A DNA stretch of 32,000 bases from Acinetobacter wanghuae (GCF_009557235.1 NZ_CP045650.1:1650001-1682000); one strand, 5' to 3'. Positions 6,654-32,000 are shown, counted from the first letter of the stretch. Notes: generated by a model from the letters alone, not told the origin. Numbers and translations: made by a program.

Positions 6654-6733
6654 AGAACCAATACCGTAAAAGAACGGCTATAGCCTAACGATTTTTACAA
6701 CAAAAGTTAAGCGCAGATATTTTAAATAACCGA

Positions 6734-8746
6734 TCAGCACGACGAACTTGGTCGCTGATTAAACTCATGTATGAAATGAATCGCGATATTACAGTATTCC
6801 AATTCTGCTTTTTGATTATTGGCATATTCCAATTGATCGAACACCAAGCTGTGATCACGTAAATGACAGCCCAATAATAACGGCACTCGCATTTCTGCAT
6901 GTGTCATATAAAATACGACATACTCACCTTCAATAATGCGCTGCGCATAACTTGCAGCTAAACAGTTTCGAAATATTTTAGCTGTTTCAATGATGTGATC
7001 GATGCTTTTAATTTCTTCAAAGGTCCAATTAAAGTAATTTAGCGTTTTTTCTTGCGTCAATGTTTGCCAACGCGCGAGCGCAAAGTCTTTTTTAAGTTTG
7101 GCAATAATTTCTTGTTTTTGAATCGTGTCGTGCCATTCAACGGCTTGGTTAAATAAACCATTCCACGTTAAGCTTTTCGGTACATCTTTATGACTAGAAA
7201 AATAATCTGATAAATAATCACGGACATAACTGTCAAAAATAGACTCTCTGACATTACCTTGTTGCAAATAAAAACGTTTACGGAAGTCATTGATTTGAAT
7301 ATGGTAGCGTTGCAATACGCTATGAAAATCCCGATTTTGCTGCGTATGCGGTCGAATATATCGGATCGCTTCTTCGGGTAAATCTTGAGTGACTTTCAGC
7401 AAATGCTGCATATATGCCTGCATGACCCGGCTTAAACCGGTATACACCTTCTTCACCACCACATCATCCATTTTCACGACATCGCGGATCAAGCCAATCC
7501 ATTCATCTAAATATAAAATAGAAGGACTAATAGCAACACGATGATCATCAATCGCTTGGCGAGTGCCTTTTAACACCACCGATTGATTATTGGAATGTTG
7601 AAACCAACGCTCCTGAATTGCCATATGATGCGCACGATGAATAAACAAGCGGGCTGAGGCATATTGAAAATATTGCAAGGTGGAGAGAATAATTTGCGGA
7701 TGAATTCGATTGGTATCTAGAAAGCTCATGGCAGTTACAGCAACACGTACACTGCTGTGCTGAATATTGGCACTTAACCAATCAAGCACCTCAGAAGACT
7801 GTTTAAAGAGCCAATTGACCGCACGATTGCAATCAAATAACGGAAGTTTCGCAACTTTTTTTTGCCATAAACTCGCATTCGCTTCTAAAAAATTCTTTTT
7901 GGCTAACAAATTATCCTGCTGCCAAAAGTTACGGTTCATCAAGCGCACAAAACCAAGCATATTGTTATGTTCAAGCGCATGCTGAAATAACAGTTCGACA
8001 TCATCTACATGCTCATTTAATTCATGTAAATTAAAGCGCTCTTCAAAAGACAAACTCATAATGCGATAAATAGCAGGATTTAAAAATTGCCCTGCACTAA
8101 AACAAAATTCATCCAAGCTATCCATCAAACTTTGCACTGATAAAAAATGTGTATCGTGTAAATAATCTAAAGAGAAAAGCCCTTGCATCATTTCTGAAAT
8201 ATCTTCAGGAATAGGCTCTTGATGCAAAACGTGCTGAATCATGATGGGCTTTTTATAAAAGCCTTCTTTCATCATCAGATGATCGATAATATCCGCTTGC
8301 ACGGTCGATAAATGGTCAAAAAAAGCCGTTACACGCGCTCGCCCATTGACCCATTGATAGACCTCATCAATGATCATTTGACGTAAATACTGCGCTTTAT
8401 CTCTGAGAAAAATCGAATGCTGCGGCTTTTGATCACCGGTTAAAAAATATAAATCCTGTAGGAAAAATTCTTCTAAAGATTCTGATGAATATTGAGCTGC
8501 ATAAAAATTAGCAAGTTGTTGGGCTTGCTGCTTATGCATACTGCGCGGGGTATGAAATTGCAGTTCAAATAAACCATTCAGCAGCACAACACCATGCTGA
8601 TCATGATTGATCCTAAACATATTTTGAGCAGTCAGATTCCCAACAATCGCCAATTGATCTTGATAAATCTCATGTAGACTTTGCGAAATCCGCGTCAATT
8701 GTTTAGCGAGTTGTTGATATTGCGTTAATAGACCTTCCTGTTCCAT
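6734..8746 (-). CDS. 670-aa protein of unknown function; the C-terminal ~150 aa resemble the PcfJ-like domain
   Basis: Long uninterrupted ORF with AAGGTG upstream of the ATG. The C-terminus ...FRNCLAASYAQRIIEGEYVVFYMTH...LLLGCHL...QLEYANNQKA resembles the PcfJ family pattern, by recollection only and without an HMM search. The N-terminal 500 aa have no motif I recognise. Confidence 0.6.
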   Translation of the reverse strand: MEQEGLLTQYQQLAKQLTRISQSLHEIYQDQLAIVGNLTAQNMFRINHDQHGVVLLNGLFELQFHTPRSMHKQQAQQLANFYAAQYSSESLEEFFLQDLYFLTGDQKPQHSIFLRDKAQYLRQMIIDEVYQWVNGRARVTAFFDHLSTVQADIIDHLMMKEGFYKKPIMIQHVLHQEPIPEDISEMMQGLFSLDYLHDTHFLSVQSLMDSLDEFCFSAGQFLNPAIYRIMSLSFEERFNLHELNEHVDDVELLFQHALEHNNMLGFVRLMNRNFWQQDNLLAKKNFLEANASLWQKKVAKLPLFDCNRAVNWLFKQSSEVLDWLSANIQHSSVRVAVTAMSFLDTNRIHPQIILSTLQYFQYASARLFIHRAHHMAIQERWFQHSNNQSVVLKGTRQAIDDHRVAISPSILYLDEWIGLIRDVVKMDDVVVKKVYTGLSRVMQAYMQHLLKVTQDLPEEAIRYIRPHTQQNRDFHSVLQRYHIQINDFRKRFYLQQGNVRESIFDSYVRDYLSDYFSSHKDVPKSLTWNGLFNQAVEWHDTIQKQEIIAKLKKDFALARWQTLTQEKTLNYFNWTFEEIKSIDHIIETAKIFRNCLAASYAQRIIEGEYVVFYMTHAEMRVPLLLGCHLRDHSLVFDQLEYANNQKAELEYCNIAIHFIHEFNQRPSSSC

Positions 8747-8882
8747 ACACGCACCTTTTCATCATGTCTCACTCATATTAAATCATATTCAGCATTTTAA
8801 ACACTGTATAGAGCAACTCACCAAAGCTTAAAACAAAACGCACAGAATAGCTAAACGACAGCCACAATCGTTATCACAACGT

Positions 8883-9650
8883 TTAAAAGCGTTCAGGATG
8901 ATCGAGATGTCTTTGCTGTTTTAAAGTTTCAATACCGTTATAAATGGTGTATTGGAGTTGTTCTCGATATTCAATTAGCTGTTCTTGAGTTTGAATATGC
9001 GCAATGGACTGACGCGCTAGAAACTGAAAATAAAAAGGTAAGCGTTTGGGAATCACATTTTTAGGCAAAGATGGAATCACTTCACCGTGACGTAATAATT
9101 GATCAAGCTTCGGTATTTTTAATAATTTTTTAAAATATTTATTGTCTGTAATGGTCTTTGCATCCAAGCCAATCTCAAATAGTTCATCGCCCCCTAAGGC
9201 AGCAAATGGCACGATGTCATATTGAAATTCTTGCGCAAGCTTTAAAAAGCCATAGCGTTCTTTCCAAATCAGTTGATATTGCTCGCCTTCATGTTTGGAT
9301 ACTTCGCGCCCGCCCCCCGGAAACACCAAAATCGAATAGCCTTGGCGCATCACTTCACGTACGTATTCGCGCACACCATCAATCGCGCCAAATTTTTTAA
9401 AAATCTCACGCCACAGTGGCACATAAAAATGGCTATGATCCGCAATGCTGACCACAGCCACTTTATGTTCATTAAACAGATAGTCCACGATAATCGGTGA
9501 ATCAAACACCCCATAAATGGAATGATTACCGACGTACATCGCAGGCTTAGACGCATCAATATGTTCTGCGCCTAAAAACGTGGGCGTGAAATACAACTTG
9601 GACAGTGCTGTAAAGCGTTTAATCCATTTTGCATCATGCCCAAGTTGCAT
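8883..9650 (-). CDS. Acyltransferase (lysophospholipid acyltransferase / PlsC-DGAT2-like superfamily)
   Basis: GNHSIYGVFD and VFPGGGREV blocks. The start is 10 bp downstream of the KASIII stop, so the two are probably co-transcribed. Confidence 0.6.
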   Translation of the reverse strand: MQLGHDAKWIKRFTALSKLYFTPTFLGAEHIDASKPAMYVGNHSIYGVFDSPIIVDYLFNEHKVAVVSIADHSHFYVPLWREIFKKFGAIDGVREYVREVMRQGYSILVFPGGGREVSKHEGEQYQLIWKERYGFLKLAQEFQYDIVPFAALGGDELFEIGLDAKTITDNKYFKKLLKIPKLDQLLRHGEVIPSLPKNVIPKRLPFYFQFLARQSIAHIQTQEQLIEYREQLQYTIYNGIETLKQQRHLDHPERF

Positions 9651-20454: not shown

Positions 20455-21030
20455 TTATTTAGGATTTACATCTTTAAATTCAATTTTCTTCGCATCGGGT
20501 GTCACTTCACGCGCTTCACCATCAATGATGGTTGAATCGCCACGACCACTCTGTTGGTTTTGCATCTCTTGCATTTGACGCATCATGTCAGCAAATGGGT
20601 TTTGACCTTGTGCACCGCCCATGCCTCCCATATCGCCCATCATGCCACCCATCATTTTTTCCATCATGGCTTGTTGACGTTTCATCATGATTTTCATCAT
20701 GCCCGCTTGGAAAGCTTTTTGTACCGCAGGAATCAACATCAGCACGGCGATAACATCCGAGATCAAACCGGGAATCATCAAGAAAAAGCCTGCCAAAATT
20801 TTAGGTAGATTTGATGCGAGTGCAGGATCACCGCTCATTTGACCCATTTGCATTTGTTGCATCTGAGGCATCAGACCTGATGAATATTTGCGAATGAGGT
20901 TTAGACCGATAAAGAACGCTGCCATAAACCAGAAAAATACGTACCACATGCTCCCGACGAGGTCACCCACGCCAATCCAGACACATACTTCTAGGATTAA
21001 GCCTGCAAAAATAATAAGAAATAATTTCAT
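20455..21030 (-). CDS. fxsA: FxsA-family (UPF0716) membrane protein with a Met/Gly/Gln-rich C-terminal extension
   Basis: LILEVCVWIGVGDLVG... and LMIPGLISDVIAVLMLIP are typical of FxsA. The tail reads MMKIMMKRQQAMMEKMMGGMMGDMGGMGG. Confidence 0.75.
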   Translation of the reverse strand: MKLFLIIFAGLILEVCVWIGVGDLVGSMWYVFFWFMAAFFIGLNLIRKYSSGLMPQMQQMQMGQMSGDPALASNLPKILAGFFLMIPGLISDVIAVLMLIPAVQKAFQAGMMKIMMKRQQAMMEKMMGGMMGDMGGMGGAQGQNPFADMMRQMQEMQNQQSGRGDSTIIDGEAREVTPDAKKIEFKDVNPK

Positions 21031-21152
21031 GAAAATTAATCTAAACTCATTTAAATAAATAGGATGCTGTCATCAAGTGCTTAATCACTATCAAGCTTTT
21101 TTGATACGCTTATGTAACAATATGGGCATTATATTATTTTTAAAGTGCAGGC

Positions 21153-21698
21153 ATGTCATTAATTATTGGAATTGACCCGGGTTCGCGTTTAACAGGTTAC
21201 GGAATTATTGAAAAACAAGGTCAAAACTTAACTTTTGTCGATGCCGGCACCATTCGTACTGAAACACCCGAAATGCCAGAACGCTTAAAGCGAATTTTTG
21301 CAGGTGTGGAACGTATTGTAAAATTTTACGGTCCAACTGAAGCATCGGTCGAACAAGTCTTTATGGCACAAAACCCAGACTCTGCGCTTAAACTGGGTCA
21401 AGCACGTGGTGCTGCAATTGCTGCATTGGTGAATTTAGATTTGCAAGTGGCTGAATATACCGCACGTCAAATCAAACAATCGGTGGTCGGTTATGGTGCT
21501 GCGGACAAAGAGCAAGTGCAAATGATGGTGATGCGTATTTTAAAATTAAGCGTTAAACCCCAACAAGATGCTGCCGATGCCCTTGCTGCTGCCATTTGCC
21601 ATGCCCATGCTTCAGGAAGTATGAGTAAAATGGCGGTACTCAATGCCCTTGGCGGTATGTCACGAGGTCGTAGCCGTGTGAGTACACGTCGTCGCTAA
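21153..21698 (+). CDS. ruvC: Holliday junction resolvase RuvC
   Basis: [36 protein letters not shown] and [12 protein letters not shown]. Confidence 0.93.
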
Positions 21699-21701
21699 TA
21701 T

Positions 21702-21977
21702 TTAGCGTAAGATCTTAAAGCCTTGAAAATGACATTCATCTATAGTTAATTCGAGCTGCTGAATGTCATCAACCACTGCATGGCGAGGTCCTTCATAACT
21801 ACGCTTTATCATTTCAACAATCTTCTCTTTATCTCCAACCAGTGTCGCTGCAACATTTCCATTCACTAGATTTTTAACAGTTCCTTTTAGACCCAAAATG
21901 GTTGCTTGATCATGAAACCATCTACGGTATCCCACACCTTGAACTTTCCCACGTATGGTTAGTTGGATTGATTGCAT
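21702..21977 (-). CDS. acyP: Acylphosphatase
   Basis: IRGKVQGVGYRRW motif in a 91-aa protein. Confidence 0.85.
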   Translation of the reverse strand: MQSIQLTIRGKVQGVGYRRWFHDQATILGLKGTVKNLVNGNVAATLVGDKEKIVEMIKRSYEGPRHAVVDDIQQLELTIDECHFQGFKILR

Positions 21978-21987
21978 CGCCCAACTC

Positions 21988-23460
21988 CTACTGATTTACA
22001 ATCTTATAAATGGCGTGTTTCATATCTTGCGCCTGTAAGCCGCGCTCACCTGTATGAGCAAGTTCATCACCTGCAAGTGCATGTAGCATAACGATTTCAT
22101 TTAACTGAATATCTTCATGGAATTGGGCTTTTAAACTAGCAATCATGCCAGCCAGAACATCGCCCATGCCTCCTGTGCCCATCCCAGCATTGCCCGCTGT
22201 ACAGATATATAATTCATTTTCCAAGGTTAAACTGCCTGAGCCTTTTAAAACCCATTGCCCTGCATAGCGTTCTTGAAGCTGATGAATGGCTGCGATCCGA
22301 TCATTTTCAATTTCTGCTGTAGAGATCCCTAACAATTTTGCCGCTTCCCCGGGATGTGGCGTGAGATAAGTTTTAGGATGCACTTTATTTGGCTGCTCTG
22401 CTAAAAACCAAAGCGCATCGGCATCTAAAATCACATCAACATCGGTATTTTGCAGAAGATTAAACCATTGCTCATATTGTGATTTTGCCCAAGCATCTCG
22501 CCCGAGCCCCATCCCGAAACACACTGCATCGATATGCTGCAATATAGAGACTCGCTCATCCTCGGTCATTGCATTGATATCTGCCAACATGATGTTCGGT
22601 GCACGCGCGAGAATAGCCGTATGATGTTTCGCATCACAAATCACGGTGACTTTGCCTGCACCTGATGCGAACGCAGCTTCAGCCGCCATAATGACAGCCC
22701 CGCCCATAGTAGCATGTCCACCAATCACCAAAACATGCCCATAGCTCCCTTTATGCCCATAGGCTTTTCGTTTGGGCAGCGAAACCGAGGTATGACTTAA
22801 ATAAGCCATCGGACGTAATGTATCATCAGGTGGAATTGCAGAAATCAGCTCCAACATTCCAACAAATTCCTTAGCCTGACCTGTAAATAATCCTGCTTTT
22901 AGTCCTAAAATGGTATAGGTGTAATCTGCTTGAATACACACAGGCATGGCACGACCGGTATTGGCATTCAATCCGCTCGAGATATCCACTGCAATTTTTA
23001 AACCTTGCTGATGATTTATCGCTTGGATAATAGTTTGCCACTGTTCATCTAAAGCACGATTTAATCCAATACCAAACAAGGCATCAATATAAGCGTCGTA
23101 TTGGATTTTAAAATCAAAATGAGGGTAGATTTCCACCCCACAATCTAAAGCTTCTTTCTGCGCTTTTTTCAATTGAGCCGATTGACCTTTTTCAGCAGCA
23201 TAAATATCAACGTTTAAACCTGCTTGTTTAAGATATTTGCTAATCAAATAACCATCACCAGCATTATTGCCCTGTCCGCAACATACGGCTATTTTCTGAA
23301 TGTTTTTATCTTTAAATAAAACAATTAAGCGCTGTGAGATGAACCAAGCCACTTGCTGCATCAAACCATACGCACTATTGTTCTGCTGAAACCAACGCTG
23401 CTCCCATGCTTGAATCACTTGGCGATGATAAACAGGGCTATGGTAAACTTGTGGCTGCAT
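21988..23460 (-). CDS. nnr: Bifunctional NAD(P)H-hydrate repair enzyme Nnr (YjeF: epimerase plus ADP-dependent dehydratase)
   Basis: N-terminal YjeF_N (CGQGNNAGDGY) and a C-terminal kinase-like domain (GSYGHVLVIGG, GTGGMGDVLAGMIASL). Confidence 0.88.
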   Translation of the reverse strand: MQPQVYHSPVYHRQVIQAWEQRWFQQNNSAYGLMQQVAWFISQRLIVLFKDKNIQKIAVCCGQGNNAGDGYLISKYLKQAGLNVDIYAAEKGQSAQLKKAQKEALDCGVEIYPHFDFKIQYDAYIDALFGIGLNRALDEQWQTIIQAINHQQGLKIAVDISSGLNANTGRAMPVCIQADYTYTILGLKAGLFTGQAKEFVGMLELISAIPPDDTLRPMAYLSHTSVSLPKRKAYGHKGSYGHVLVIGGHATMGGAVIMAAEAAFASGAGKVTVICDAKHHTAILARAPNIMLADINAMTEDERVSILQHIDAVCFGMGLGRDAWAKSQYEQWFNLLQNTDVDVILDADALWFLAEQPNKVHPKTYLTPHPGEAAKLLGISTAEIENDRIAAIHQLQERYAGQWVLKGSGSLTLENELYICTAGNAGMGTGGMGDVLAGMIASLKAQFHEDIQLNEIVMLHALAGDELAHTGERGLQAQDMKHAIYKIVNQ

Positions 23461-23483
23461 TTTATGATTCCTGTCTTTGGTTT

Positions 23484-24578
23484 ATGACAACATCCGACTC
23501 TCAAGCGAAAATTCAACTTTATCAAGAAAATCCGAGCGAACTAAAAGCTTGGATTAAAGCACAAGCGTTGGAATTAGGTTTTTCCGATTGTGTCATTGCC
23601 AAACCAGATGCTCAAGTAGAATTAGCACGACTACAAGCCTATCTTGATCGTGGCTATCACGGCGATATGAAGTTTTTAGAAGAAAATTTAGAAAAACGAG
23701 CCAATCCTGCGTTACTTGTGCCCAATACGAAATCAATTATTTGTGTCCGCATGGACTACTTGGTGGAAACTCCTGAACCGCGCATTGTGCCTTTTGCACC
23801 CAATTCAGCAATTATTGCACGCTATGCACGCGGACGTGACTATCATAAAACCTTGCGCGGACGCTTAAAAATATTGGCAACGAAGATCCGTGAAAAAGTA
23901 GGTGAATTTGATTCACGTCCATTTGCCGATTCTGCACCGATTTTTGAAAAATCTCTGGCTGAAAATGCAGGGATGGGTTGGACAGGCAAACACACTCTGC
24001 TCATTCATAAAAAATCTGGTTCATTTTTTGTGTTAGGTGAATTATTCACTTCTCTCGATTTACCTTTTGATGAAGCCACAAGTAAGCACTGTGGCTCGTG
24101 CACAGCCTGTATCGATATTTGCCCGACGCAAGCGATTGTTGAACCCTATGTTCTGGATGCACGTCGCTGTATTGCGTATCTTACGATTGAATATAAGGGA
24201 ATTATTCCTGAAGATTTGCGCCGTGGTATTGGCAATCGAGTCTTTGGTTGTGATGATTGTCAGCTCATTTGCCCGTGGAACAGTTTTGCTCAAACCACTT
24301 CGGTCACAGATTTTCATCCGCGTCATGGCTTAGATCAAGTCAGTTTATTAGATTTATGGAAATGGGATGAAGCTACTTTTTTGGCATCAACGGAAGGCAG
24401 TCCGATGCGTCGCACTGGCTATCAAAGTTTTATGCGAAATATTGCGATTGGGCTAGGCAATGCGCCCTATCATAATGATATCCTGGAAGCACTTAAAAAT
24501 GCGCGTGAGCAGCATGATGACATTGTTCGCGTTCATATTGATTGGGCAATTCAAGAACAGTTATTCAAAGCTGCATAA
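23484..24578 (+). CDS. queG: Epoxyqueuosine reductase QueG
   Basis: Two 4Fe-4S motifs (CGSCTACIDICP and CDDCQLICPWN) in a DUF1730-like context. I chose the ATG at 23484. The track start at 23406 would overlap the nnr start codon region. Confidence 0.88.
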   Translation: MTTSDSQAKIQLYQENPSELKAWIKAQALELGFSDCVIAKPDAQVELARLQAYLDRGYHGDMKFLEENLEKRANPALLVPNTKSIICVRMDYLVETPEPRIVPFAPNSAIIARYARGRDYHKTLRGRLKILATKIREKVGEFDSRPFADSAPIFEKSLAENAGMGWTGKHTLLIHKKSGSFFVLGELFTSLDLPFDEATSKHCGSCTACIDICPTQAIVEPYVLDARRCIAYLTIEYKGIIPEDLRRGIGNRVFGCDDCQLICPWNSFAQTTSVTDFHPRHGLDQVSLLDLWKWDEATFLASTEGSPMRRTGYQSFMRNIAIGLGNAPYHNDILEALKNAREQHDDIVRVHIDWAIQEQLFKAA

Positions 24579-24687
24579 AATTTCATTCGCTTACGTCCTT
24601 TCACTTTTTCACTGTGAAGCCTTACACATGGGGCAATAGATCTATGGCATAAAATAAGCATAGATCATTTCAGCGGAGGGATCAGCG

Positions 24688-24882
24688 ATGAAACAGCATC
24701 AACAAAAGGCGAATCAACAGCAACTGGATGAACTGCAACAGAATCAGCAACAACAGCAACCGCAATCAGGTCCAGTAAATTCACCCAAAAACAATCAGCA
24801 TGAGCAAGATGAACGCGTGCTTAACCAACAGCACCGAACTGATTTACAAAACCAAAAGGTTCATAGTAACCATCGAGAATAA
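24688..24882 (+). CDS. 64-aa Gln/Asn-rich hydrophilic protein, function unknown
   Basis: GGAGG lies 7 nt upstream of the ATG, and a terminator follows 25 nt after the stop. By my count 20 Q and 8 N of 64 residues, with no hydrophobic core. Confidence 0.55.
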   Translation: MKQHQQKANQQQLDELQQNQQQQQPQSGPVNSPKNNQHEQDERVLNQQHRTDLQNQKVHSNHRE

Positions 24883-24907
24883 ACACCCAAATACATTACC
24901 TTCAGAA

Positions 24908-24932
24908 GTCCACTTTATGGTGGGCTTTTTTT
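24908..24932 (+). terminator. Rho-independent terminator after the Q-rich ORF
   Basis: Stem GTCCAC / GTGGGC (one G-U pair), 6-nt loop, then T7. Confidence 0.6.
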
Positions 24933-25025
24933 AATGAAAAATCTAAAGTGATTTTAGTCATACAGCTTTCTCTTTCATTGCCTAATCAAGAAAAAACGTA
25001 ATGAAATATCCACTTAAAGTAAAAA

Positions 25026-25250
25026 TTACTGAGCAAAATTATGCGCAGTAATTAAAATCCCATAGCTTGCATTTAGATAATCCCCGACCCGAATCTGATC
25101 GATTCCATTGGCATGATGCACCGTAAGCTCTTTTGAAATCACATCATAGTGAAAGGCATCAAAGCTATCTTGATGTAAGGTGAGCCAATGTAAAGTATCC
25201 GCTAAATTATCATCTACAATATAAGTCAGTTTTTGAAAGTCTTTGGTCAT
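25026..25250 (-). CDS. Hypothetical 74-aa protein
   Basis: ORF only. No motif recognised. Confidence 0.4.
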   Translation of the reverse strand: MTKDFQKLTYIVDDNLADTLHWLTLHQDSFDAFHYDVISKELTVHHANGIDQIRVGDYLNASYGILITAHNFAQ

Positions 25251-25302
25251 GTGATCACCATAAAATTTGTGTGAATTTTAAATGATTTCAAGTCTATGGG
25301 CT

Positions 25303-25330
25303 TAAAAAAAAGTGAGCCTAAGCTCACTTT
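25303..25330 (-). terminator. Rho-independent terminator (minus strand) after ORF 25345-25542
   Basis: 8-bp stem AAGTGAGC / GCTCACTT with loop CTAA. On the minus strand it is followed by T8. Confidence 0.7.
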
Positions 25331-25344
25331 TCATTTGAAAAAGA

Positions 25345-25542
25345 TCATTCTTTATTGATACCACATTTACGACATTCTCTATGTGCACCAATTTCTTCCA
25401 TTTGTTCGTACTCATAGATGTGCAAACAAAAAAGTTTTTTCAGTAGCTGAAGCATGTTTAAAACTCCTGTCTCATCATTTCTTTTGATTATTGCTTCTTT
25501 ATATTTCATCCTGAAACATCGTGATTTAGATGAATAAATCAC
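25345..25542 (-). CDS. Hypothetical small protein with a C-terminal CxxC
   Basis: ORF followed by a strong terminator. The start codon is uncertain because there are several in-frame Met codons. Confidence 0.35.
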   Translation of the reverse strand: MIYSSKSRCFRMKYKEAIIKRNDETGVLNMLQLLKKLFCLHIYEYEQMEEIGAHRECRKCGINKE

Positions 25543-25910
25543 CTCATATTAATTAACATATTTTTAGTGAATGTAAAATGCATTTCATCTCATTTTTCAT
25601 CTATTCGATTTCTGAGTAATTGGTCACCTTTGGTGAGTGGATTGATATGCAACATGAACATGCATACATGCCATATAAAAAGCCTCGAAATAGTGCGATT
25701 TTAATTACTCAGCAAACAATATTCTTCTTCTAATCAGTTACATAATTTTCCATTCATCAATGAACATCATGCTTGCTTTCAGGATGGGTGACATATTGTG
25801 TTTATTTGTAATAAAAAAACCATGCTAAAAAATTATCCTTATAATTCAACAACAAATATAGTTGCGTCATTTTTTATTTTGAATATAGGTTTTAATTTAA
25901 GGAAATATTG

Positions 25911-26912
25911 ATGAGAATCAAAAGTGTTGGTCGAGGCATGGTTCATTTGCTGCATGAATTTTGTCTAGAGCATCAATTCATTTCTCCCGTAAAACGAAAT
26001 TATGCCATTGATGAACTTATTTCATTTGAAAAATGGTTAAAAATGTTAGGGGCTGTTCAAGATCAATATCAAAAACCAGGTTTGGGAATTGAGCTTGGAA
26101 AAAGAATTCAACAATCTCACATCGGTATTTCTTCATATATTGCACAATCATGTGAAACTTTTATTCAATTTTTAGAATATGCCAATAGGTACAATCGCAT
26201 TTGGTATAACTTTATGCTGCGTGAGATTGAAGTCACGGATCAGTATTTAATTGTACATTGGGATAAACCTGCCTATTTAAATGTAGGCTTATATTCCACT
26301 GAAACTGCCATTTCTGAAGAACTACAAATCTCGATATTATTTAAACGAGTAGAGCAAATGATTGGCCATCAAGTTTTTTTTGAAAAGCTTGAACTTACAA
26401 TGAAGAAACCCGCCAATACACGTCTATACGAGGATTACTTTAAGTGTCCTATCTCCTTTGAAAGTGACAAAACTAGCTTGTATTTTTCAAAATCGATGAT
26501 GAATGTAAAACTGAGTAAACCCGATCCTTTACTCATTGAAATTCTTACACCGCAAGCAAATAAACTGTTAAATGATATTCCGACTCAGTATCAATTTATC
26601 GAACGTGTCAATCAATTGATTGTTCTTTCTATCAGCAAAAATAATCCTCAAATTGAATTTGTAGCGGATCAACTGAACATGAACGTACGGACACTTCAAA
26701 TAGAACTTAAAAAATATGACCTGACCTTTAAAGTCTTGCTGAGTAAGATTCGGCATAAACTTGCTTTAAAATATCTCTCAGATGCGGATTTATCCTTAAT
26801 GGATATTGCCTTTTTGCTCAGCTATAAGGAGCAAGCCTCTTTCAATCGCGCTTTTAGAAGCTGGTGTGATTTATCTCCGTCGGAATGGCGGAAATTAAAT
26901 GATAATAATTAA
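25911..26912 (+). CDS. AraC-family transcriptional regulator (N-terminal ligand-binding domain plus C-terminal double HTH)
   Basis: The C-terminal LSLMDIAFLLSYKEQASFNRAFRSWCDLSPSEWR is the classic AraC HTH2. AAGGA lies 7 nt upstream of the ATG at 25911. Confidence 0.85.
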   Translation: MRIKSVGRGMVHLLHEFCLEHQFISPVKRNYAIDELISFEKWLKMLGAVQDQYQKPGLGIELGKRIQQSHIGISSYIAQSCETFIQFLEYANRYNRIWYNFMLREIEVTDQYLIVHWDKPAYLNVGLYSTETAISEELQISILFKRVEQMIGHQVFFEKLELTMKKPANTRLYEDYFKCPISFESDKTSLYFSKSMMNVKLSKPDPLLIEILTPQANKLLNDIPTQYQFIERVNQLIVLSISKNNPQIEFVADQLNMNVRTLQIELKKYDLTFKVLLSKIRHKLALKYLSDADLSLMDIAFLLSYKEQASFNRAFRSWCDLSPSEWRKLNDNN

Positions 26913-27001
26913 CGTTTTTTAAGACAAAACTTCTTTATGACTTGTTGTTAACATACTTTCCATCACCTCTCCACAGTGATTTTCAGGATAGTTTCCTGTT
27001 C

Positions 27002-27037
27002 GCTATATCTTTTCCCCTTAAAGATATAGCTTTTTTT
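27002..27037 (+). terminator. Rho-independent terminator downstream of the AraC-family gene
   Basis: Perfect 11-bp stem GCTATATCTTT / AAAGATATAGC, 7-nt loop, then T7. Confidence 0.8.
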
Positions 27038-27085
27038 AATTTTAGGAGAATATAAATCTTTGAATTAAATGATTGATTTTTTACC

Positions 27086-27128
27086 CCATACCTTCGCTAT
27101 CTCCTCCTCTGGAAGGTATGGTCTTTTT
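27086..27128 (+). terminator. Second terminator-like hairpin
   Basis: 10-bp stem CCATACCTTC / GAAGGTATGG with a 16-nt loop, then TCTTTTT. There is no gene immediately upstream, so its role is unclear. Confidence 0.35.
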
Positions 27129-27149
27129 ATATCTCAAAATATTTCGTTA

Positions 27150-27233
27150 TTTCTAAATTGCATCTATAGCAGTGACCAAGCCACCAAATATATTTATTCT
27201 CTGAAATTTCTAAGGCATTTCTGACAGTGAAAC
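27150..27233 (-). repeat. Two decayed CRISPR-repeat relics (degenerate type I-F repeats) with a ~29-nt spacer-like gap
   Basis: 27150-27177, TTTCTAAATTGCATCTATAGCAGTGACC, matches the array consensus TTTCTAAGCTGCCTATATGGCAGTGAAC at 22 of 28 positions without gaps. 27207-27233, TTTCTAAGGCATTTCTGACAGTGAAAC, keeps the first 8 nt and the CAGTGAA end, with a 2-nt deletion in the middle. Both have the same orientation as the array and start 57 bp apart. Confidence 0.7.
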
Positions 27234-27353
27234 AGATAATCTTCATGGAAATTCGTGGACTATCGTCGCCTGTTTATACTGAATAAAATGATCTTGGCTT
27301 TGCTTTCACGCCTCAAGCATTCAATTCATTGCACTTAGCATTAAATGATGGAC

Positions 27354-27391
27354 CATAAAAAACCCCTTAGGATTAGTACACCTAAGGGGTT
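27354..27391 (-). terminator. Rho-independent terminator 8 nt downstream of the tRNA 3' end (minus strand)
   Basis: The minus strand reads AACCCCTTAGG-TGTACTAAT-CCTAAGGGGTT followed by a T-run. Confidence 0.8.
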
Positions 27392-27399
27392 GATTTATT

Positions 27400-27444
27400 T
27401 GGTGGGCCCACACAGACTTGAACTGTGGACCAACGGATTATGAG
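27400..27444 (-). pseudogene. 3' 45-nt fragment of a tRNA with CAU anticodon (Ile2/Met type); att-like direct repeat, 5' half missing
   Basis: The minus strand reads CTCATAA-TCCGT-TGGTC-CACAG-TTCAAGT-CTGTG-TGGGCCC-A-CCA. These are the anticodon loop, the 3' anticodon stem, the variable loop, the T arm, the 3' acceptor strand, the discriminator base and CCA. Upstream sequence (27445-27476) cannot pair with either the acceptor or the anticodon stem. Confidence 0.75.
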
Positions 27445-27538
27445 TTCTTAAGCTTATTTGTTGATTGGAGTTTACTTTTACCTATTAGTTTATTTAAATC
27501 ATACACCTAAATAACCTTACCACTTATCTTAAAAATTC

Positions 27539-27594
27539 TAAAGTTGATTAAAGTTGCTTTAAAATGACCTAATCTGCTACCTATTTGCTACCTA
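27539..27594 (+). promoter_or_regulatory. Two pairs of short tandem direct repeats just upstream of the integrase start (candidate integrase/Xis arm-type or operator sites)
   Basis: TAAAGTTG occurs at 27539-27546 and 27549-27556 (period 10). TGCTACCTA occurs at 27575-27583 and 27586-27594 (period 11), ending 4 nt before the ATG. Confidence 0.3.
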
Positions 27595-27598
27595 GAAA

Positions 27599-28873
27599 AT
27601 GAGTGTCACCACTTTTAAATTTACCACAGCACGATTAACTCAATGTTCATGTCCTGTTGGAAAGAGCTATTTCATTTATTGGGATGAGTTGGTCAAAGGT
27701 TTAGGACTAAAAACTTACCCGACATCTAAGAAGATGTTTATTTACCAATCTCGCCTTGGTGGTAAGGTTTTAAAAATCTCTATTGGCGTTTTTCCTAACT
27801 ACTCTATTGATCAAGCTAGGCAAATGGCCAAAGAATACGATGTGATGATTCTACAGGGTATCGATCCAAGATTAGAAAAAAAGCGTCTCATCGAAAAAAA
27901 TGAAGAGGAAATTAAAAACTATAAGCGTCAAAAATTACTTTTCCGAGACGTATGGGATGACTATTTAAATGCTAACAAAGAGCGTTGGAGAGATCGCACA
28001 TATCAGGATCATGTACGCTTAGCTTCAGGTAATAATGAAATTTTCAAAGGTAAGCATAGAACACTTTCTAAGCCGCAACCGATATATGCTCTTCTAGATA
28101 TTCCCTTAAATGAATTAAGTAGTAACGTGCTCTCTACATGGTTGAATCAGGAAAATCTTGAAAGACCAACCTCTGCAGCTTTGTCGTTTCGTTTAGTCAG
28201 AGCTTGCCTGAATTGGGCTGATGAACAAAGCATGTATACCGGTTTACTTCCAGATAGATCCATTCATTCGAAGAAAGTGAAGCAGGCCGTAACGCCGACT
28301 AAAGCAAAGAAAGACTGTCTGCAAAAAGAACAACTTGCTTCCTTTTTCAAGGCTGTCATTGAGCTGCCTAACCCTTATATTTCAGCTTATTTACTTGTGA
28401 CTCTGATTACTGGCGCACGACGAAACGAAATTGCCACGCTCAAATGGCAAGATGTAGACCTAAAATGGAATACCTTACACATCAGCGATAAGATTGATGA
28501 TGATGGTCGCATCATTCCCTTAACGCCTTTCGTCAAACAACTGATTCTAAATTTAGAAAGACATAATGAGTATGTATTTTACTCTGAGAAATCATCAATA
28601 GGTTATATCGTTGAACCTACTAAAAGCTTAAAAATTGCTGCATCAAATGCAGAGATTGATGACATTACCATTCATGGGCTACGGCGTTCATTCAAAACGC
28701 TATCAGAGTGGGTATCACTACCAAGTGGGATCGTTGCTCAAATTGCAGGTCATAAGCCTAGTGGCACAGAGGAAAAGCACTATACGGTTCGACCTATAGA
28801 CTTGCTGAGAAAGTGGCACATCGAGTATGAAGAATGGATTTTAAAACAAGCCCATATAAAATTAGAATTATAG
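27599..28873 (+). CDS. int: Tyrosine site-specific integrase, P4-like (DUF4102 N-terminal domain)
   Basis: The N-terminal GLGLKTYPTSKKMFIYQSRLGGKVLKISIGVFPNYSIDQAR matches the DUF4102 pattern. Catalytic residues: ARRNEIATLKW (Arg), HGLRRSF (His-x-x-Arg) and AGHKPSGTEEKHY (His and Tyr). No obvious Shine-Dalgarno sequence. Confidence 0.9.
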   Translation: MSVTTFKFTTARLTQCSCPVGKSYFIYWDELVKGLGLKTYPTSKKMFIYQSRLGGKVLKISIGVFPNYSIDQARQMAKEYDVMILQGIDPRLEKKRLIEKNEEEIKNYKRQKLLFRDVWDDYLNANKERWRDRTYQDHVRLASGNNEIFKGKHRTLSKPQPIYALLDIPLNELSSNVLSTWLNQENLERPTSAALSFRLVRACLNWADEQSMYTGLLPDRSIHSKKVKQAVTPTKAKKDCLQKEQLASFFKAVIELPNPYISAYLLVTLITGARRNEIATLKWQDVDLKWNTLHISDKIDDDGRIIPLTPFVKQLILNLERHNEYVFYSEKSSIGYIVEPTKSLKIAASNAEIDDITIHGLRRSFKTLSEWVSLPSGIVAQIAGHKPSGTEEKHYTVRPIDLLRKWHIEYEEWILKQAHIKLEL

Positions 28874-28937
28874 CTCTACCCTTTCCGCTCGAATGCAAGG
28901 CTAAATTTTCAATCAAACCAATAAAAAATTTGTTAGC

Positions 28938-31900
28938 TTTTTAAGCTGCCTATTCGGCAGTGAACAGCGGTATATCGTTTACAGATTCGTTTTGAATTTT
29001 CTCAGCTGCCTACATGGCAGTGAACCATAGAACGTTGGGTTCGACGCATTAACTACATTTCTAAGCTGCCTATATGGCAGTGAGCATCGGTAAATTTCTT
29101 GCTAAAAATGCTGCAATTTTCTAAGCTGCCTATATGGCAGTGAGCATCGGTAAATTTCTTGCTAAAAATGCTGCAATTTTCTAAGCTGCCTATATGGCAG
29201 TGAACAAAGAATTAAAAAAGGGTCGTCCTGTATTCACTTTCTAAGCTGCCTATATGGCAGTGAACGCAGTAGCAGAATCTTTAAGCCGAATAACAACATT
29301 TCTAAGCTGCCTATATGGCAGTGAACCAAAAACCCCTAGCCCCACATTATTAAAAATATTTCTAAGCTGCCTATATGGCAGTGAACATTGCATGCGATTT
29401 TCTAAAGAAAATATCCACTTTCTAAGCTGCCTATATGGCAGTGAACAACAAGACAGGTGAAGCGCGATTTATTAAGAATTTTCTAAGCTGCCTATATGGC
29501 AGTGAACTTTTTAATTAAGTAAATTTGGCTCATAGAATCTTTCTAAGTTGCCTATATGGCAGTGAACAGACATCCTCAGCGGACATCCCTTCGTATTTAT
29601 TTTCTAAGCTGCCTATATGGCAGTGAACTCATCAACAAGCACGACACGTAGCTTTGTGATTTTCTAAGCTGCCTATATGGCAGTGAACCGGATCAACTGA
29701 TTCAGCGCGTCAAAGATTTATTTCTAAGCTGCCTATATGGCAGTGAACCTTATACAGCACTCTTGGTATACATAGACAATTTTCTAAGCTGCCTATATGG
29801 CAGTGAACGTTGTTAATGCCAAAAATAGAGCCAAAGTCACTTTCTAAGCTGCCTATATGGCAGTGAACAGTCCATTGATTCTTGTGCTGTCCAAAGATTT
29901 TTTCTAAGCTGCCTATATGGCAGTGAACCTAGGGCAAGGTATTAATAACGAACCGCTGTTTTTCTAAGCTGCCTATATGGCAGTGAACCTGCAACGTACT
30001 TAATCGCGGGCTTTCGTCTCTTTCTAAGCTGCCTATATGGCAGTGAACAGGTGGGGTTTATGATTGATGAAGATTATCAGTTTCTAAGCTGCCTATATGG
30101 CAGTGAACAACCACGCTGAACGCATGTTTGATATGTATAATTTCTAAGCTGCCTATATGGCAGTGAACCATTATGGGTATTCATAAGCTTTTAGATGATT
30201 TTTCTAAGCTGCCTATATGGCAGTGAACCCAAGGCTGACAAACAAGGGTGGTGGAAACATTTTCTAAGCTGCCTATATGGCAGTGAACTCGATCATCCCA
30301 GTCATTCGTTAATTCTATCGTTTCTAAGCTGCCTATATGGCAGTGAACTACTTTGTAGGTTTCTTATCTTTCCCTTGAAATTTCTAAGCTGCCTATATGG
30401 CAGTGAACTTGTGTGTCTGATTTTCCGACAGCATCTTAGCTTTCTAAGCTGCCTATATGGCAGTGAACGGCGTGATGTTTAAAACACCACCCTCAACTTT
30501 TTTCTAAGCTGCCTATATGGCAGTGAACTTTGATGCATTTACGTTTAAAGAAATTGTTAATTTCTAAGCTGCCTATATGGCAGTGAACTAACAATCCGAA
30601 CTTGTGAACCACTTCTAATATTTCTAAGCTGCCTATATGGCAGTGAACCATCAACATAGTAGCAAAACAACCCACGCACATTTCTAAGCTGCCTATATGG
30701 CAGTGAACACATCACTGATTCAAGCTTACACCCAAATTTATTTCTAAGCTGCCTATATGGCAGTGAACTAAAATTAAAATCATCAGTACCTTTTGAAATA
30801 TTTCTAAGCTGCCTATATGGCAGTGAACGTTCCGTATTTTTATCGTCACGTAGATCTTCATTTCTAAGCTGCCTACATGGCAGTGAACGAATCAACAATG
30901 ATTGAACAGATTGATGCGATTTTCTAAGCTGCCTACATGGCAGTGAACACCATGAAGCGAAAAGCTACCAACTTATAAAATTTCTAAGCTGCCTACATGG
31001 CAGTGAACACACCACAGACACCTTGTAAACGTCTTTGGTTTTTCTAAGCTGCCTACATGGCAGTGAACATTCTGTGATTGGGCTGCAATTGTCTGTGATT
31101 TTTCTAAGCTGCCTACATGGCAGTGAACGTGCTGCGTGGTGAAGAATTCAACTCCGTCATTTTCTAAGCTGCCTACATGGCAGTGAACTCATAACCATTT
31201 TTTGGTTGTCGAGCTTCCGATTTCTAAGCTGCCTACATGGCAGTGAACGGATTGAATGACACCACGCGAGCGGGCAATGATTTCTAAGCTGCCTACATGG
31301 CAGTGAACATTTCTCATTGTTATCTCCAGTGATCGTTACATTTCTAAGCTGCCTACATGGCAGTGAACTTTGGCTTCTCGGAGAGTCCACGTCTTCTAAT
31401 TTTCTAAGCTGCCTACATGGCAGTGAACGTTCCGTATTTTTATCGTCACGTAGATCTTCATTTCTAAGCTGCCTACATGGCAGTGAACTCTTTCCAAAAG
31501 ATCAAGAACTCATTGCATAATTTCTAAGCTGCCTACATGGCAGTGAACTTAGGGGGTAAATAATATGTATTTTTCAGATTTTTCTAAGCTGCCTACATGG
31601 CAGTGAACTGGAAAGTGGCATATTTCCTTTTAAGCATTCATTTCTAAGCTGCCTACATGGCAGTGAACGTAAACCATACGAAATTGAACGTGCAGGCACA
31701 TTTCTAAGCTGCCTACATGGCAGTGAACCCTCGACGCTCTTAACGTCTGGCGATTCATCATTTCTAAGCTGCCTACATGGCAGTGAACTGTTTGATCCAT
31801 CCTCAAGCGTTGCCTTGACTTTTCTAAGCTGCCTACATGGCAGTGAACCCGTGTGCTATGAAGTCGATGAGCCACAGCCTTTTCTAAGCTGCCTACATGG

Positions 31901-32000
31901 CAGTGAACAAGTTATCGTTTATCTACCCCGTCCTTCCCCAATTTCTAAGCTGCCTACATGGCAGTGAACTTATACGATGCCTAAGGCTGATAAACAGGGA
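28938..32000 (-). CRISPR. Type I-F CRISPR array, 51 repeats, truncated by the window end; read on the minus strand with the trailer end at 28938
   Basis: The 28-nt repeat on the + strand is TTTCTAAGCTGCCTA[T/C]ATGGCAGTGAAC. Its reverse complement GTTCACTGCCAT[A/G]TAGGCAGCTTAGAAA is the canonical I-F form, with stem CTGCC/GGCAG and 8-nt handle CTTAGAAA. Spacers are 31-33 nt, mostly 32. Repeats 1-2 (28938, 28998) carry 3 and 2 substitutions, as expected for a trailer end. Repeats 3-32 have the TATATGG variant and repeats 33-51 have TACATGG. Confidence 0.98.

What the first reader, a model, noticed from the sequence alone, without database searches (positions are those of the whole stretch)
27354..32000. 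Large type I-F CRISPR array sits directly behind a tRNA-fragment/P4-type integrase junction: CRISPR(-Cas) as apparent cargo of a tRNA-targeting island
27400-27444 (minus strand) holds only the last 45 nt of a tRNA(CAU), from the anticodon loop to CCA. An intact terminator follows on its 3' side, but there is no 5' half. This is the architecture of the distal direct repeat left when an island integrates into the 3' half of a tRNA gene, with chromosome to the left and island to the right. The first island gene is a P4-type integrase. Only 64 bp after its stop codon the decayed trailer end of an array with at least 51 repeats begins. The array is transcribed toward the integrase gene, so the two are convergent and I see no terminator between them. 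No cas gene is in the window. Repeat orientation predicts that the leader and a cas1-cas2/3-csy-cas6f operon lie beyond 32000 on the minus strand, with the intact tRNA further on. If so, a complete adaptive immune system of more than 3 kb of spacers is being carried by, or trapped in, an integrative element. Read-through pre-crRNA would be antisense to int, which might damp excision, but that part is speculative.
Basis: partly seen in the sequence, partly recalled or inferred. Interest (0 to 1): 0.7.

Follow-up and report, generated by a model that had tools for sequence, protein, structure and literature searches.

The report
CRISPR array beside tRNA-island integrase
A large type I-F CRISPR array in Acinetobacter wanghuae occupies the swappable cargo position of an integrase-driven island that inserts into a tRNA(CAU) gene; immune systems are already known to travel this way, so the finding is real but ordinary.

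Summary
There is a 46-nt 3' piece of a tRNA(CAU) at 27400-27445 (minus strand), followed by a strong terminator. Next comes an intact P4/IntF-type integrase (27599-28873). After a 64-bp gap there is an array of at least 51 type I-F repeats, transcribed toward the integrase. No cas gene is in the window. The organism is Acinetobacter wanghuae.

Integrases 73-80% identical occur in eight other Acinetobacter contexts. Where the upstream DNA was assembled, it shows the same terminator-fragment-integrase layout. What follows the integrase differs each time: type I restriction-modification, McrBC-type and candidate defence genes, a kinase/phosphatase set, catabolic operons, or an IS. A more distant integrase (45% identical) on the same tRNA gives a complete example: an occupied site with an intact tRNA at the far end, and a matching empty site. 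The array therefore sits in a cargo slot.

I could not reach the far end of this island or any cas genes. A decayed two-unit mini-array lies left of the junction and remains unexplained. Type I-F CRISPR-Cas on integrase islands at tRNA or tmRNA genes is already described in Vibrio and A. baumannii. My verdict is a new member of a known kind, of modest interest.

The parts
27150..27233 (-). Decayed two-unit CRISPR-like mini-array. The units are 27150-27177 and 27207-27233, separated by a 29-nt spacer, in the same orientation as the main array. It lies outside the island as delimited by the tRNA fragment.
   Evidence: Unit 1 matches the repeat at 22 of 28 positions. The next best match outside the array is 18 of 28 in the window and 19 of 28 in the other loci fetched up to then, roughly 0.4-0.5 Mb (a few later loci were not scanned this way). 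Both units have lost the Cas6f hairpin. Not reported by Rfam.
27355..27391 (-). Intrinsic terminator just 3' of the tRNA fragment.
   Evidence: 11-bp stem followed by a U-run, -19.7 kcal/mol, z = -4.15. Homologous hairpins with compensatory changes follow the same tRNA in L007, L010, L019, L020, L044 and others.
27400..27445 (-). 3' 46 nt of tRNA(CAU), from the anticodon loop to CCA. This is the integrase-proximal direct repeat (attR-type junction).
   Evidence: 100% identical to nt 33-78 of the intact tRNA. ARAGORN calls no tRNA here. The same fragment lies upstream of the homologous integrase wherever that DNA was assembled.
27446..27598 (+). Island-side arm between the att core and int. It includes the conserved motif ATCTGCTACCTATTTGCTACCT at 27572-27593.
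   Evidence: GAGTTCTTA follows the core in the window and in L003, L010 and L011; L007/L008 read GAGTTCTAA (L007 also has TAG for GAG). The GCTACCT doublet before the start codon is conserved in L003, L007, L010 and L011.
27599..28873 (+). Tyrosine integrase of the P4/IntF type, 424 aa, apparently intact.
   Evidence: Pfam PF13356 and PF00589. 100% identical to an NCBI A. wanghuae protein; homologues are 420-431 aa. 41% identical to E. coli IntF.
28874..28937 (.). 64-bp junction between the int stop codon and the last (trailer) repeat. This is the left edge of the cargo slot.
   Evidence: Homology with L011 ends at 28872. No significant structure or terminator.
28938..32000 (-). Type I-F CRISPR array. 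It has 51 repeats, with the trailer at the left, and runs off the window on the leader side.
   Evidence: Two repeat variants, ATATAG in the older part and ATGTAG in the newer part. The repeat is identical to arrays next to complete I-F1 cas operons in pANC7970.1; ANC 3789 has it with a final G. Phage protospacers carry a CC PAM.

Best explanation
The 27355-28873 block is the integrase end of an integrative island that inserted by site-specific recombination into the 3' 46 nt of a tRNA(CAU) gene of Acinetobacter wanghuae. The fragment plus terminator is the displaced original 3' end of the gene (attR-type junction). The island extends to the right, and an intact, reconstituted tRNA is expected at its far end. 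In this integrase family, the DNA that starts within about 15-380 bp (mostly under 100 bp) after the integrase stop codon is an exchangeable cargo slot, often filled with anti-phage systems. Here that slot holds a type I-F array and, by inference, its leader and a cas1-cas2/3-csy1-3-cas6f operon on the minus strand beyond 32000.

Shown: the junction anatomy, the family-wide layout, the cargo variability, and that the array is a genuine I-F immune record.

Inferred: the far end, the cas genes, and that the element can still move.
For: 1. The same fragment-integrase layout is seen in 11 of the 13 further int-homologue loci examined (eight gene contexts, 73-80% identical integrases); the other two contigs start too close to int to show it. 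A terminator-like hairpin precedes the fragment in the six loci inspected that reach it.
2. Cargo immediately after int differs between loci:
- type I RM plus DUF927 (L006);
- Schlafen-like helicase/NUDIX/SRA-HNH/McrBC, with PADLOC hits PDC-S41, PDC-S07 and type IV REase (L007);
- a similar set in L066, with a type I HsdR where L007 has McrBC;
- kinase/PP2C/VWA (L067);
- catabolic operons (L003, L011);
- an IS (L010).
Sources.
3. L011 shares the ruvC-yjeF-queG flank. After the chromosome it is homologous to the window only over terminator, fragment and int, ending at the stop codon.
4. L051 and L018 are an occupied/empty pair for a 45%-identical integrase on the same tRNA. The order is fragment, int, SIR2, DUF3987, terminator, intact tRNA. 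The flanks are 95-99% identical to the empty site.
5. At least five short-read contigs carrying the integrase start inside the tRNA fragment and two more a few bases before it. This is what a second genomic copy of that segment would cause.
6. The int-array junction recurs at 99.8% identity in two other sequencing runs.
7. The array is bona fide I-F: Rfam CRISPR-DR4 matches, and the same repeat lies next to full I-F1 operons (ANC 3789 differs in the last base). Two spacers hit Acinetobacter phages with a CC PAM.
8. In other Acinetobacter the same CRISPR-Cas type sits at other chromosomal sites or on plasmids, so it does move.
Against: The far end, the intact tRNA and the cas genes were never seen for this genome.

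No Cas1 named for A. wanghuae, or carried on a contig of its genome's size, appeared among the 120 best Cas1 clusters or the members read from 10 of them. That sampling was incomplete.

Two decayed CRISPR repeats lie on the supposedly chromosomal side, 120 bp beyond the terminator. The simple model does not predict them.

No replication, excision (RDF) or transfer gene is visible in the window.

In L003 and L011 the 'cargo' is at least 10 kb of ordinary metabolic genes. In some genomes the integrase module may therefore be a stranded remnant.

No empty site was found in a close relative of A. wanghuae.
Confidence: 0.62

Rival explanations
1. Tandem accretion. The tRNA(CAU) gene is a hotspot where islands stack. 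The 220-bp segment with the decayed mini-array, and perhaps the terminator beside it, would be the tRNA-proximal end of an older CRISPR-bearing island. That island was mostly deleted and later overlaid by the AraC block. The present integrase plus array would then be a newer island inserted in front of it.
For: Decayed repeats at 27150-27233 have the same orientation as the main array. In L051 the island itself supplies a terminator of the same type next to the reconstituted tRNA, so 'terminator plus fragment' can be flanked by island DNA. The segment 25598-27354 is not homologous to L011 and has low G+C. The AraC block has sharp edges and also occurs elsewhere, once beside an IS.
Against: There is no second integrase or tRNA fragment, nor any cas remnant, to the left. 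Terminators of this type also look native to the tRNA in other species, as in the L044/L010 pair. The 220-bp segment matches nothing else that was fetched.
Confidence: 0.15
2. The array is resident and the integrase is a latecomer. The array, with or without cas, was already at this chromosomal position and its decayed trailer reached 27150. The 1.7-kb block of terminator, fragment and integrase later landed in or next to the trailer by rearrangement or island decay. It would therefore not be the array's own recombinase.
For: Repeat decay is broadly graded toward the left: 28 of 28 matches, then 27, 27, 26 and 25 on the right of the block, and 22 plus a second unit with an indel on its left. 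In the L011 comparison the conserved block is exactly terminator to int stop, with unrelated DNA on both sides. Touchon et al. report an ancient I-F locus fixed at one site across distant Acinetobacter species (PMC4224351).
Against: A site-specific insertion would put the att core at an end of the inserted block, not 160 bp inside it. The array trailer holds no attB-like tRNA sequence. The array starts 64 bp after int, exactly where unrelated cargo starts in eight other contexts. In ANC 3789 and A. johnsonii the I-F locus lies at other sites.
Confidence: 0.13
3. Orphan array. The island carries only a CRISPR array, with no cas operon. The array would be either a decaying relic or one that uses Cas proteins encoded elsewhere.
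For: No cas gene is in the window. No A. wanghuae Cas1 surfaced in the searches. An array with a similar leader-like sequence but no match to the six I-F Cas queries in the 5.4 kb upstream occurs in an IMG/VR contig (L078).
Against: 46 of the 51 repeats are exact copies of one of two variants, and the switch between variants is clean. Spacers match current phages with correct PAMs. Both points argue for recent activity of a cognate I-F system. In pANC7970.1 and ANC 3789, cas6f and the leader directly precede arrays with this repeat.
Confidence: 0.1

Closest known systems
Vibrio genomic islands carrying type I-F CRISPR-Cas: VPI-6 in V. cholerae and the 25-kb island at tRNA-Met in V. vulnificus 93U204 (McDonald et al. 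2019, PMC6360697, read)
   Same: A type I-F system lies inside an island with a tyrosine integrase and attL/attR repeats. One of these islands is at a tRNA-Met(CAU-type) locus. VPI-6 was shown experimentally to excise as a unit.
   Different: The genus, the integrase lineage and the attachment site are different. In this window only the integrase end and the array are seen. Excision and the cas genes are not shown.
A. baumannii I-Fa CRISPR-Cas at the ssrA (tmRNA) 'archipelago' and on the phage-plasmid PPTOP (Rubio et al. preprint, 10.1101/2023.09.20.558655)
   Same: The genus is the same. A type I-F CRISPR-Cas behaves as one of several alternative islands, including restriction-modification islands, at a small-RNA gene hotspot.
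   Different: The target there is ssrA, not tRNA(CAU). That system has a different cas order and two arrays. In the passages read, the paper proposes no dedicated adjacent integrase for the CRISPR island. Here the repeat is that of the canonical cas1-cas3-csy-cas6f type.
P4/IntF-type integrases and P4-like elements with defence hotspots next to int. E. coli CP4-6 IntF was matched here. The link to P4-satellite defence hotspots is from my own knowledge of Rousset et al. 2022 and was not checked here.
   Same: The integrase has arm-binding and catalytic domains. It integrates into the 3' end of a tRNA gene. Variable anti-phage cargo sits directly beside int. Primase-helicase genes (DUF927, DUF3987) occur in related islands.
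   Different: Identity to IntF is only 41%. There was no match to any record in the phage collection at E<=1e-20. No satellite hallmark genes were seen in this window.
Acinetobacter plasmid pANC7970.1 (NZ_CP156773.1) and the Acinetobacter sp. ANC 3789 chromosome
   Same: pANC7970.1 has the identical 28-nt repeat, GTTCACTGCCATGTAGGCAGCTTAGAAA; ANC 3789 has the same repeat ending in G. In both it follows cas1-cas3f-csy1-3-cas6f and a leader. These loci are the template for what should lie beyond 32000.
   Different: The plasmid's neighbouring integrase is unrelated (24% identity) and lies upstream of cas1. In ANC 3789 the locus sits next to hrpA-fabH, with no integrase or tRNA.
Type I-F1 regulatory mini-arrays (Shmakov et al. 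preprint, 10.1101/2023.03.03.530964)
   Same: Two repeat-like units flank a short spacer, as at 27150-27233. Intact versions sit after cas3 in L013, L062 and L063.
   Different: The units here have lost the hairpin. They lie outside any cas locus and in the opposite relative orientation. Their spacer has no target in the window. They look like a relic.

Membership tests
Type I-F CRISPR array | 28-nt repeat with the I-F hairpin and CUUAGAAA handle | tested here: met
   All eight repeats in the stretch scanned (26900-29400) match Rfam CRISPR-DR4 (RF01317) at 35.6-44.8 bits, against a gathering score of 35, on the minus strand. The hairpin folds at -7.8 kcal/mol.
Type I-F CRISPR array | Regular 32-nt unique spacers derived from mobile elements, with a 5'-CC PAM | tested here: met
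   46 spacers are 32 nt and 4 are 33 nt. Spacers 30409-30440 and 31849-31880 match Acinetobacter phages, and each protospacer is preceded by CC.
[quoted passage not shown] | Adjacent leader and cas1, cas2/3, csy1-3 (cas8f, cas5f, cas7f) and cas6f | not testable with these tools
   None is in the window and the array runs off the end. The source contig could not be extended. Loci with the same repeat do have the operon.
tRNA-integrating genomic island with P4/IntF-type integrase | Tyrosine recombinase with an N-terminal arm-binding domain, next to an att site | tested here: met
   PF13356 and PF00589. The gene lies 153 bp from the tRNA fragment. 41% identical to IntF.
tRNA-integrating genomic island with P4/IntF-type integrase | Direct repeat equal to the 3' part of the target tRNA at the island border | tested here: met
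   46 of 46 nt are identical to the intact tRNA(CAU). The same holds at the homologous integrases.
tRNA-integrating genomic island with P4/IntF-type integrase | Second copy of the repeat inside an intact tRNA at the other border | not testable with these tools
   It is outside the window. It was shown only for a 45%-identical relative (L051). Contig breaks inside the fragment are an indirect hint.
tRNA-integrating genomic island with P4/IntF-type integrase | Presence/absence polymorphism: an empty site in relatives | tested here: inconclusive
   L011 has the same chromosomal flank and integrase but different cargo. Empty sites were found only for other species (L018, L044). None was found for A. 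wanghuae.
tRNA-integrating genomic island with P4/IntF-type integrase | Excision to a circular form | not testable with these tools
   This needs PCR or read-level data.
P4-like phage satellite | Primase-helicase and satellite regulatory or capsid-redirecting genes | not tested
   Nothing of this kind is in the window. DUF927 or DUF3987 proteins occur in related islands L006, L051 and L058.
Regulatory I-F1 mini-array (for 27150-27233) | Well-kept upstream repeat, a Cas6f hairpin, and a spacer partly complementary to a promoter with a PAM | tested here: not met
   The hairpins are lost (-2.1 and -1.3 kcal/mol, no better than shuffles). No target longer than 14 nt (with one mismatch; longest perfect match 11 nt) was found in the window.

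The most novel reading that the evidence does not exclude
The integrase/att module is embedded in CRISPR sequence on both sides, with decayed repeats at 27150-27233 and the main array from 28938. If that is not an accident, CRISPR-bearing islands may repeatedly replace one another at this tRNA(CAU) hotspot. Each would leave its array ends behind, and array-array recombination could then be the mechanism that swaps cargo. Alternatively, read-through trailer RNA antisense to int could tie island stability to CRISPR expression.
Probability: 0.1. Interest if true: 0.5.

Novelty: new member of a known kind. Interest (0 to 1): 0.3.

Why it matters
The finding adds an Acinetobacter example of adaptive immunity carried in the cargo slot of a tRNA-targeting integrative element. 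In this integrase family, restriction-modification, McrBC-type, kinase/phosphatase and catabolic modules are interchangeable at the same slot, and a more distant integrase on the same tRNA carries a SIR2 gene. That helps explain the patchy, multi-site distribution of one I-F lineage across Acinetobacter chromosomes and plasmids. It does not change current understanding, because the phenomenon is documented in Vibrio and A. baumannii.

Tried and rejected
1. Extending the contig. An exact look-up of the integrase returned only two 1.6-kb Logan contigs; the long source contig was not shown. An exact look-up of the AraC protein failed.

2. Finding A. wanghuae cas genes. I searched with Cas1 of a plasmid that has the identical repeat. 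No hit named A. wanghuae or sat on a contig of its genome's size, either among 120 clusters or among the members read from 10 clusters. This is not evidence of absence.

3. Finding an empty site through the nearest flanking gene. AraC homologues lie in unrelated contexts, beside a cation ATPase or an IS30 element. This showed that AraC is a portable block, not a stable flank.

4. Looking for the integrase family in viral collections. There were no hits in IMG/VR or in the phage collection.

5. Testing whether 27150-27233 is the cas3-csy1 regulatory mini-array or a trailer flank. No cas remnant was found. There is no homology beyond the repeats to L013 or L062, nor to the present trailer flank.

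6. Testing whether spacers target rival islands or the window itself. There were no significant hits.

7. Looking for further tRNA remnants left of the junction that would mark an older island border. None was found.

8. Rfam did not report the truncated tRNA at E<=1.

Full report
**What is there**

The window comes from Acinetobacter wanghuae: the integrase at 27599-28873 is 100% identical to an NCBI protein of that species. ARAGORN finds no tRNA anywhere in the window. Even so, 27400-27445 on the minus strand is identical over 46 nt to positions 33-78 of an intact 78-nt tRNA(CAU), which I recovered from metagenome contigs. The rest of the window holds no other piece of this tRNA.

Just 3' of the fragment, 27355-27391 forms an 11-bp hairpin followed by a U-run (-19.7 kcal/mol, z = -4.15).

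The integrase is full length. It carries the Arm-DNA-bind_3 and Phage_integrase domains and shows R, HxxR, H and Y motifs consistent with a tyrosine-recombinase active site (not checked against a reference alignment). Its closest named relative is E. coli IntF, at 41% identity.

Sixty-four bp after its stop codon, an array of 51 repeats begins and runs off the window. Three things place its transcription on the minus strand, toward int:
- The repeats match Rfam CRISPR-DR4 on the minus strand.
- The degenerate repeats lie at the integrase end.
- Two spacers (30409-30440 and 31849-31880) match Acinetobacter phages, and each protospacer is preceded by the I-F 5'-CC PAM when read in that sense.

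No cas gene or cas remnant is in the window.

**Is the fragment an island border?**

Integrases 73-80% identical to this one were found in 13 further loci (eight gene contexts), from isolates, MAGs and metagenomes. They include Acinetobacter sp. SFB and A. faecalis. Eleven of these loci show the same fragment a similar distance upstream of int; the other two contigs start too close to int. In the six loci I inspected that reach beyond the fragment, a terminator-like hairpin precedes it. The island-side bases GAGTTCTTA follow the core in the window, L003, L010 and L011 (L007/L008 read GAGTTCTAA), and a GCTACCT doublet before the start codon is conserved.

No intact tRNA lies in the fetched flanks of any of them (up to 10 kb on each side where the contig allows). 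The integrase therefore sits consistently at the distal, attR-type border.

A 45%-identical integrase that uses the same tRNA gives a full picture:
- Locus L051 has the fragment with the native terminator, then int, a 919-aa SIR2 protein, a DUF3987 primase-helicase, a terminator and an intact tRNA 12.2 kb away.
- Locus L018 is the matching empty site. Its flanks are 95-99% identical to those of L051.

At least five short-read contigs carrying the integrase start inside the tRNA fragment, and two more a few bases before it. A second genomic copy of that segment would cause this. Two independent sequencing runs contain the same int-array junction at 99.8% identity.

**Is the array cargo?**

In the relatives, the DNA after the integrase stop codon differs every time:
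- type I restriction-modification plus DUF927 (L006);
- Schlafen-like helicase, NUDIX, SRA-HNH and McrBC, with PADLOC hits PDC-S41, PDC-S07 and type IV REase (L007);
- a similar set in L066, with a type I HsdR in place of McrBC;
- a kinase/PP2C/VWA set (L067);
- catabolic operons (L003, L011);
- an IS (L010).

L011 is the most telling. It shares this window's chromosomal neighbourhood (fxsA-ruvC-yjeF-queG and three small ORFs; window 20689-25597 at 72% identity). After that, homology resumes only over 27355-28872, which is the terminator, fragment and integrase, and it ends at the stop codon. The array therefore occupies the exchangeable slot of this element family.

The CRISPR type itself is mobile in the genus. 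The repeat lies next to complete cas1-cas3f-csy1-3-cas6f operons on plasmid pANC7970.1 (identical) and in the ANC 3789 chromosome beside hrpA-fabH (last base G). A remnant of such a system lies at yet another site in A. johnsonii.

**What remains open**

I could not see the far border, the intact tRNA or any cas gene of this genome. The source contig was not returned. The single genome-collection scan found no conspecific locus. A Cas1-based search did not surface an A. wanghuae protein, although sampling of the large clusters was incomplete. 'CRISPR-Cas' as opposed to 'CRISPR array' is therefore an inference from loci with the same repeat.

**An unpredicted feature**

Left of the junction, 120 bp beyond the terminator, lie two repeat-like units in the same orientation as the array:
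- 27150-27177: TTTCTAAATTGCATCTATAGCAGTGACC, matching the repeat at 22 of 28 positions;
- 27207-27233: TTTCTAAGGCATTTCTGACAGTGAAAC.

Nothing else outside the array reaches 20 of 28, either in the window or in the other loci fetched up to that point, roughly 0.4-0.5 Mb. Both units have lost the Cas6f hairpin. Their spacer has no target in the window.

They sit in a 220-bp segment between the terminator and a portable AraC block (25597-27133). That block recurs at 97% identity beside an IS30-family element and at 79% beside a cation ATPase.

Intact two-unit mini-arrays are a normal part of this I-F1 lineage, between cas3 and csy1 (Shmakov et al.). The one here has the opposite relative orientation and no cas remnant around it.

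I see three possible readings:
- It is a relic of an earlier CRISPR-bearing island stacked at the same hotspot. L051 shows that such islands can bring their own terminator.
- It is the severed old trailer of the present array.
- It is an unrelated ectopic relic.

None of these can be settled here. The first two are listed as rival explanations.

**The antisense idea**

The simple scan finds no terminator-like site in the 64-bp gap. It finds only weak ones inside int on the minus strand. Read-through is therefore not excluded, but nothing supports a regulatory role.

**Comparison with what is known**

Type I-F CRISPR-Cas inside integrase-bearing genomic islands is well documented in Vibrio. One example is at a tRNA-Met locus, and another was shown to excise as a unit (PMC6360697). 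In A. baumannii an I-F system is one of several alternative islands at the ssrA hotspot and also travels on a phage-plasmid. Defence cargo beside P4-type integrases is a familiar pattern; that statement rests on my own knowledge and was not checked here.

This case is therefore a new member of a known kind. It differs in host species, in integrase lineage and in attachment site, which is tRNA(CAU) with a 46-nt core. The intact gene is called tRNA-Met by ARAGORN. To me its variable loop and T-arm resemble tRNA-Ile2, but that comparison is from memory and is not tested.

**Verdict**

| Item | Assessment |
|---|---|
| Observation | confirmed |
| Confidence in the cargo-of-an-island reading | about 0.6 |
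| Interest | about 0.3 |

Noticed in passing
window 27150-27233: A decayed two-unit CRISPR-like mini-array lies on the 'chromosomal' side of the tRNA fragment, 120 bp beyond the terminator. It has the same orientation as the main array. The hairpins are lost and no target was found.
   Followed up: yes
window 25597-27133: The AraC-family regulator gene sits in a sharply bounded block. The block recurs at 97% identity next to an IS30-family element (L077) and at 79% next to a cation ATPase (L073-L076). It is absent from the syntenic locus L011. It looks like a portable module, not a stable flank.
   Followed up: partly
window 28938-32000: The array has two repeat variants. The older part (29058-30828) has ...CCTATATGG... 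and the newer part (30861-31969) has ...CCTACATGG..., with a clean switch. Two spacers are duplicated: 29086 = 29146, and 30829 = 31429. This suggests internal recombination or duplication.
   Followed up: partly
window 4938-9650, compared with L062/L063 (ANC 3789) and L064 (A. johnsonii): In ANC 3789 the same I-F1 cas operon and array follow hrpA-fabH; those genes lie at 9.6-14.8 kb in this window. In A. johnsonii a cas remnant lies a few kb from the DUF441/rluA/relB cluster, which lies at 1.5-4.8 kb here. In this window the interval between them holds a PIF1-like helicase, a 670-aa protein with no Pfam hit, and an acyltransferase. The interval may be a second variable hotspot.
   Followed up: no
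L013 7050-7125; L062 14501-14587; L063 14498-14584: A well-preserved inverted two-unit mini-array lies immediately after the cas3 stop codon in Acinetobacter I-F1 loci. This fits the autoregulatory mini-arrays described by Shmakov et al.
   Followed up: partly
L051 12890-13028, compared with L018: The island supplies its own terminator behind the reconstituted tRNA. That terminator belongs to the hairpin family that appears native to this tRNA in other Acinetobacter species. This suggests the island's att region was captured from such a species.
   Followed up: partly
L078 5250-6400 (IMG/VR UViG 2791355504_000004): A 16-repeat array with the same repeat and a similar leader-like sequence lies in a predicted viral region. 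The 5.4 kb upstream has no match to the six I-F Cas queries and no Pfam hits for its three large ORFs.
   Followed up: partly
L013 876-2084 (plasmid pANC7970.1): An unrelated arm-type integrase (24% identity to the window's) lies about 500 bp upstream of cas1 on a mobilizable plasmid. This is another pairing of an integrase with the same CRISPR-Cas lineage.
   Followed up: partly
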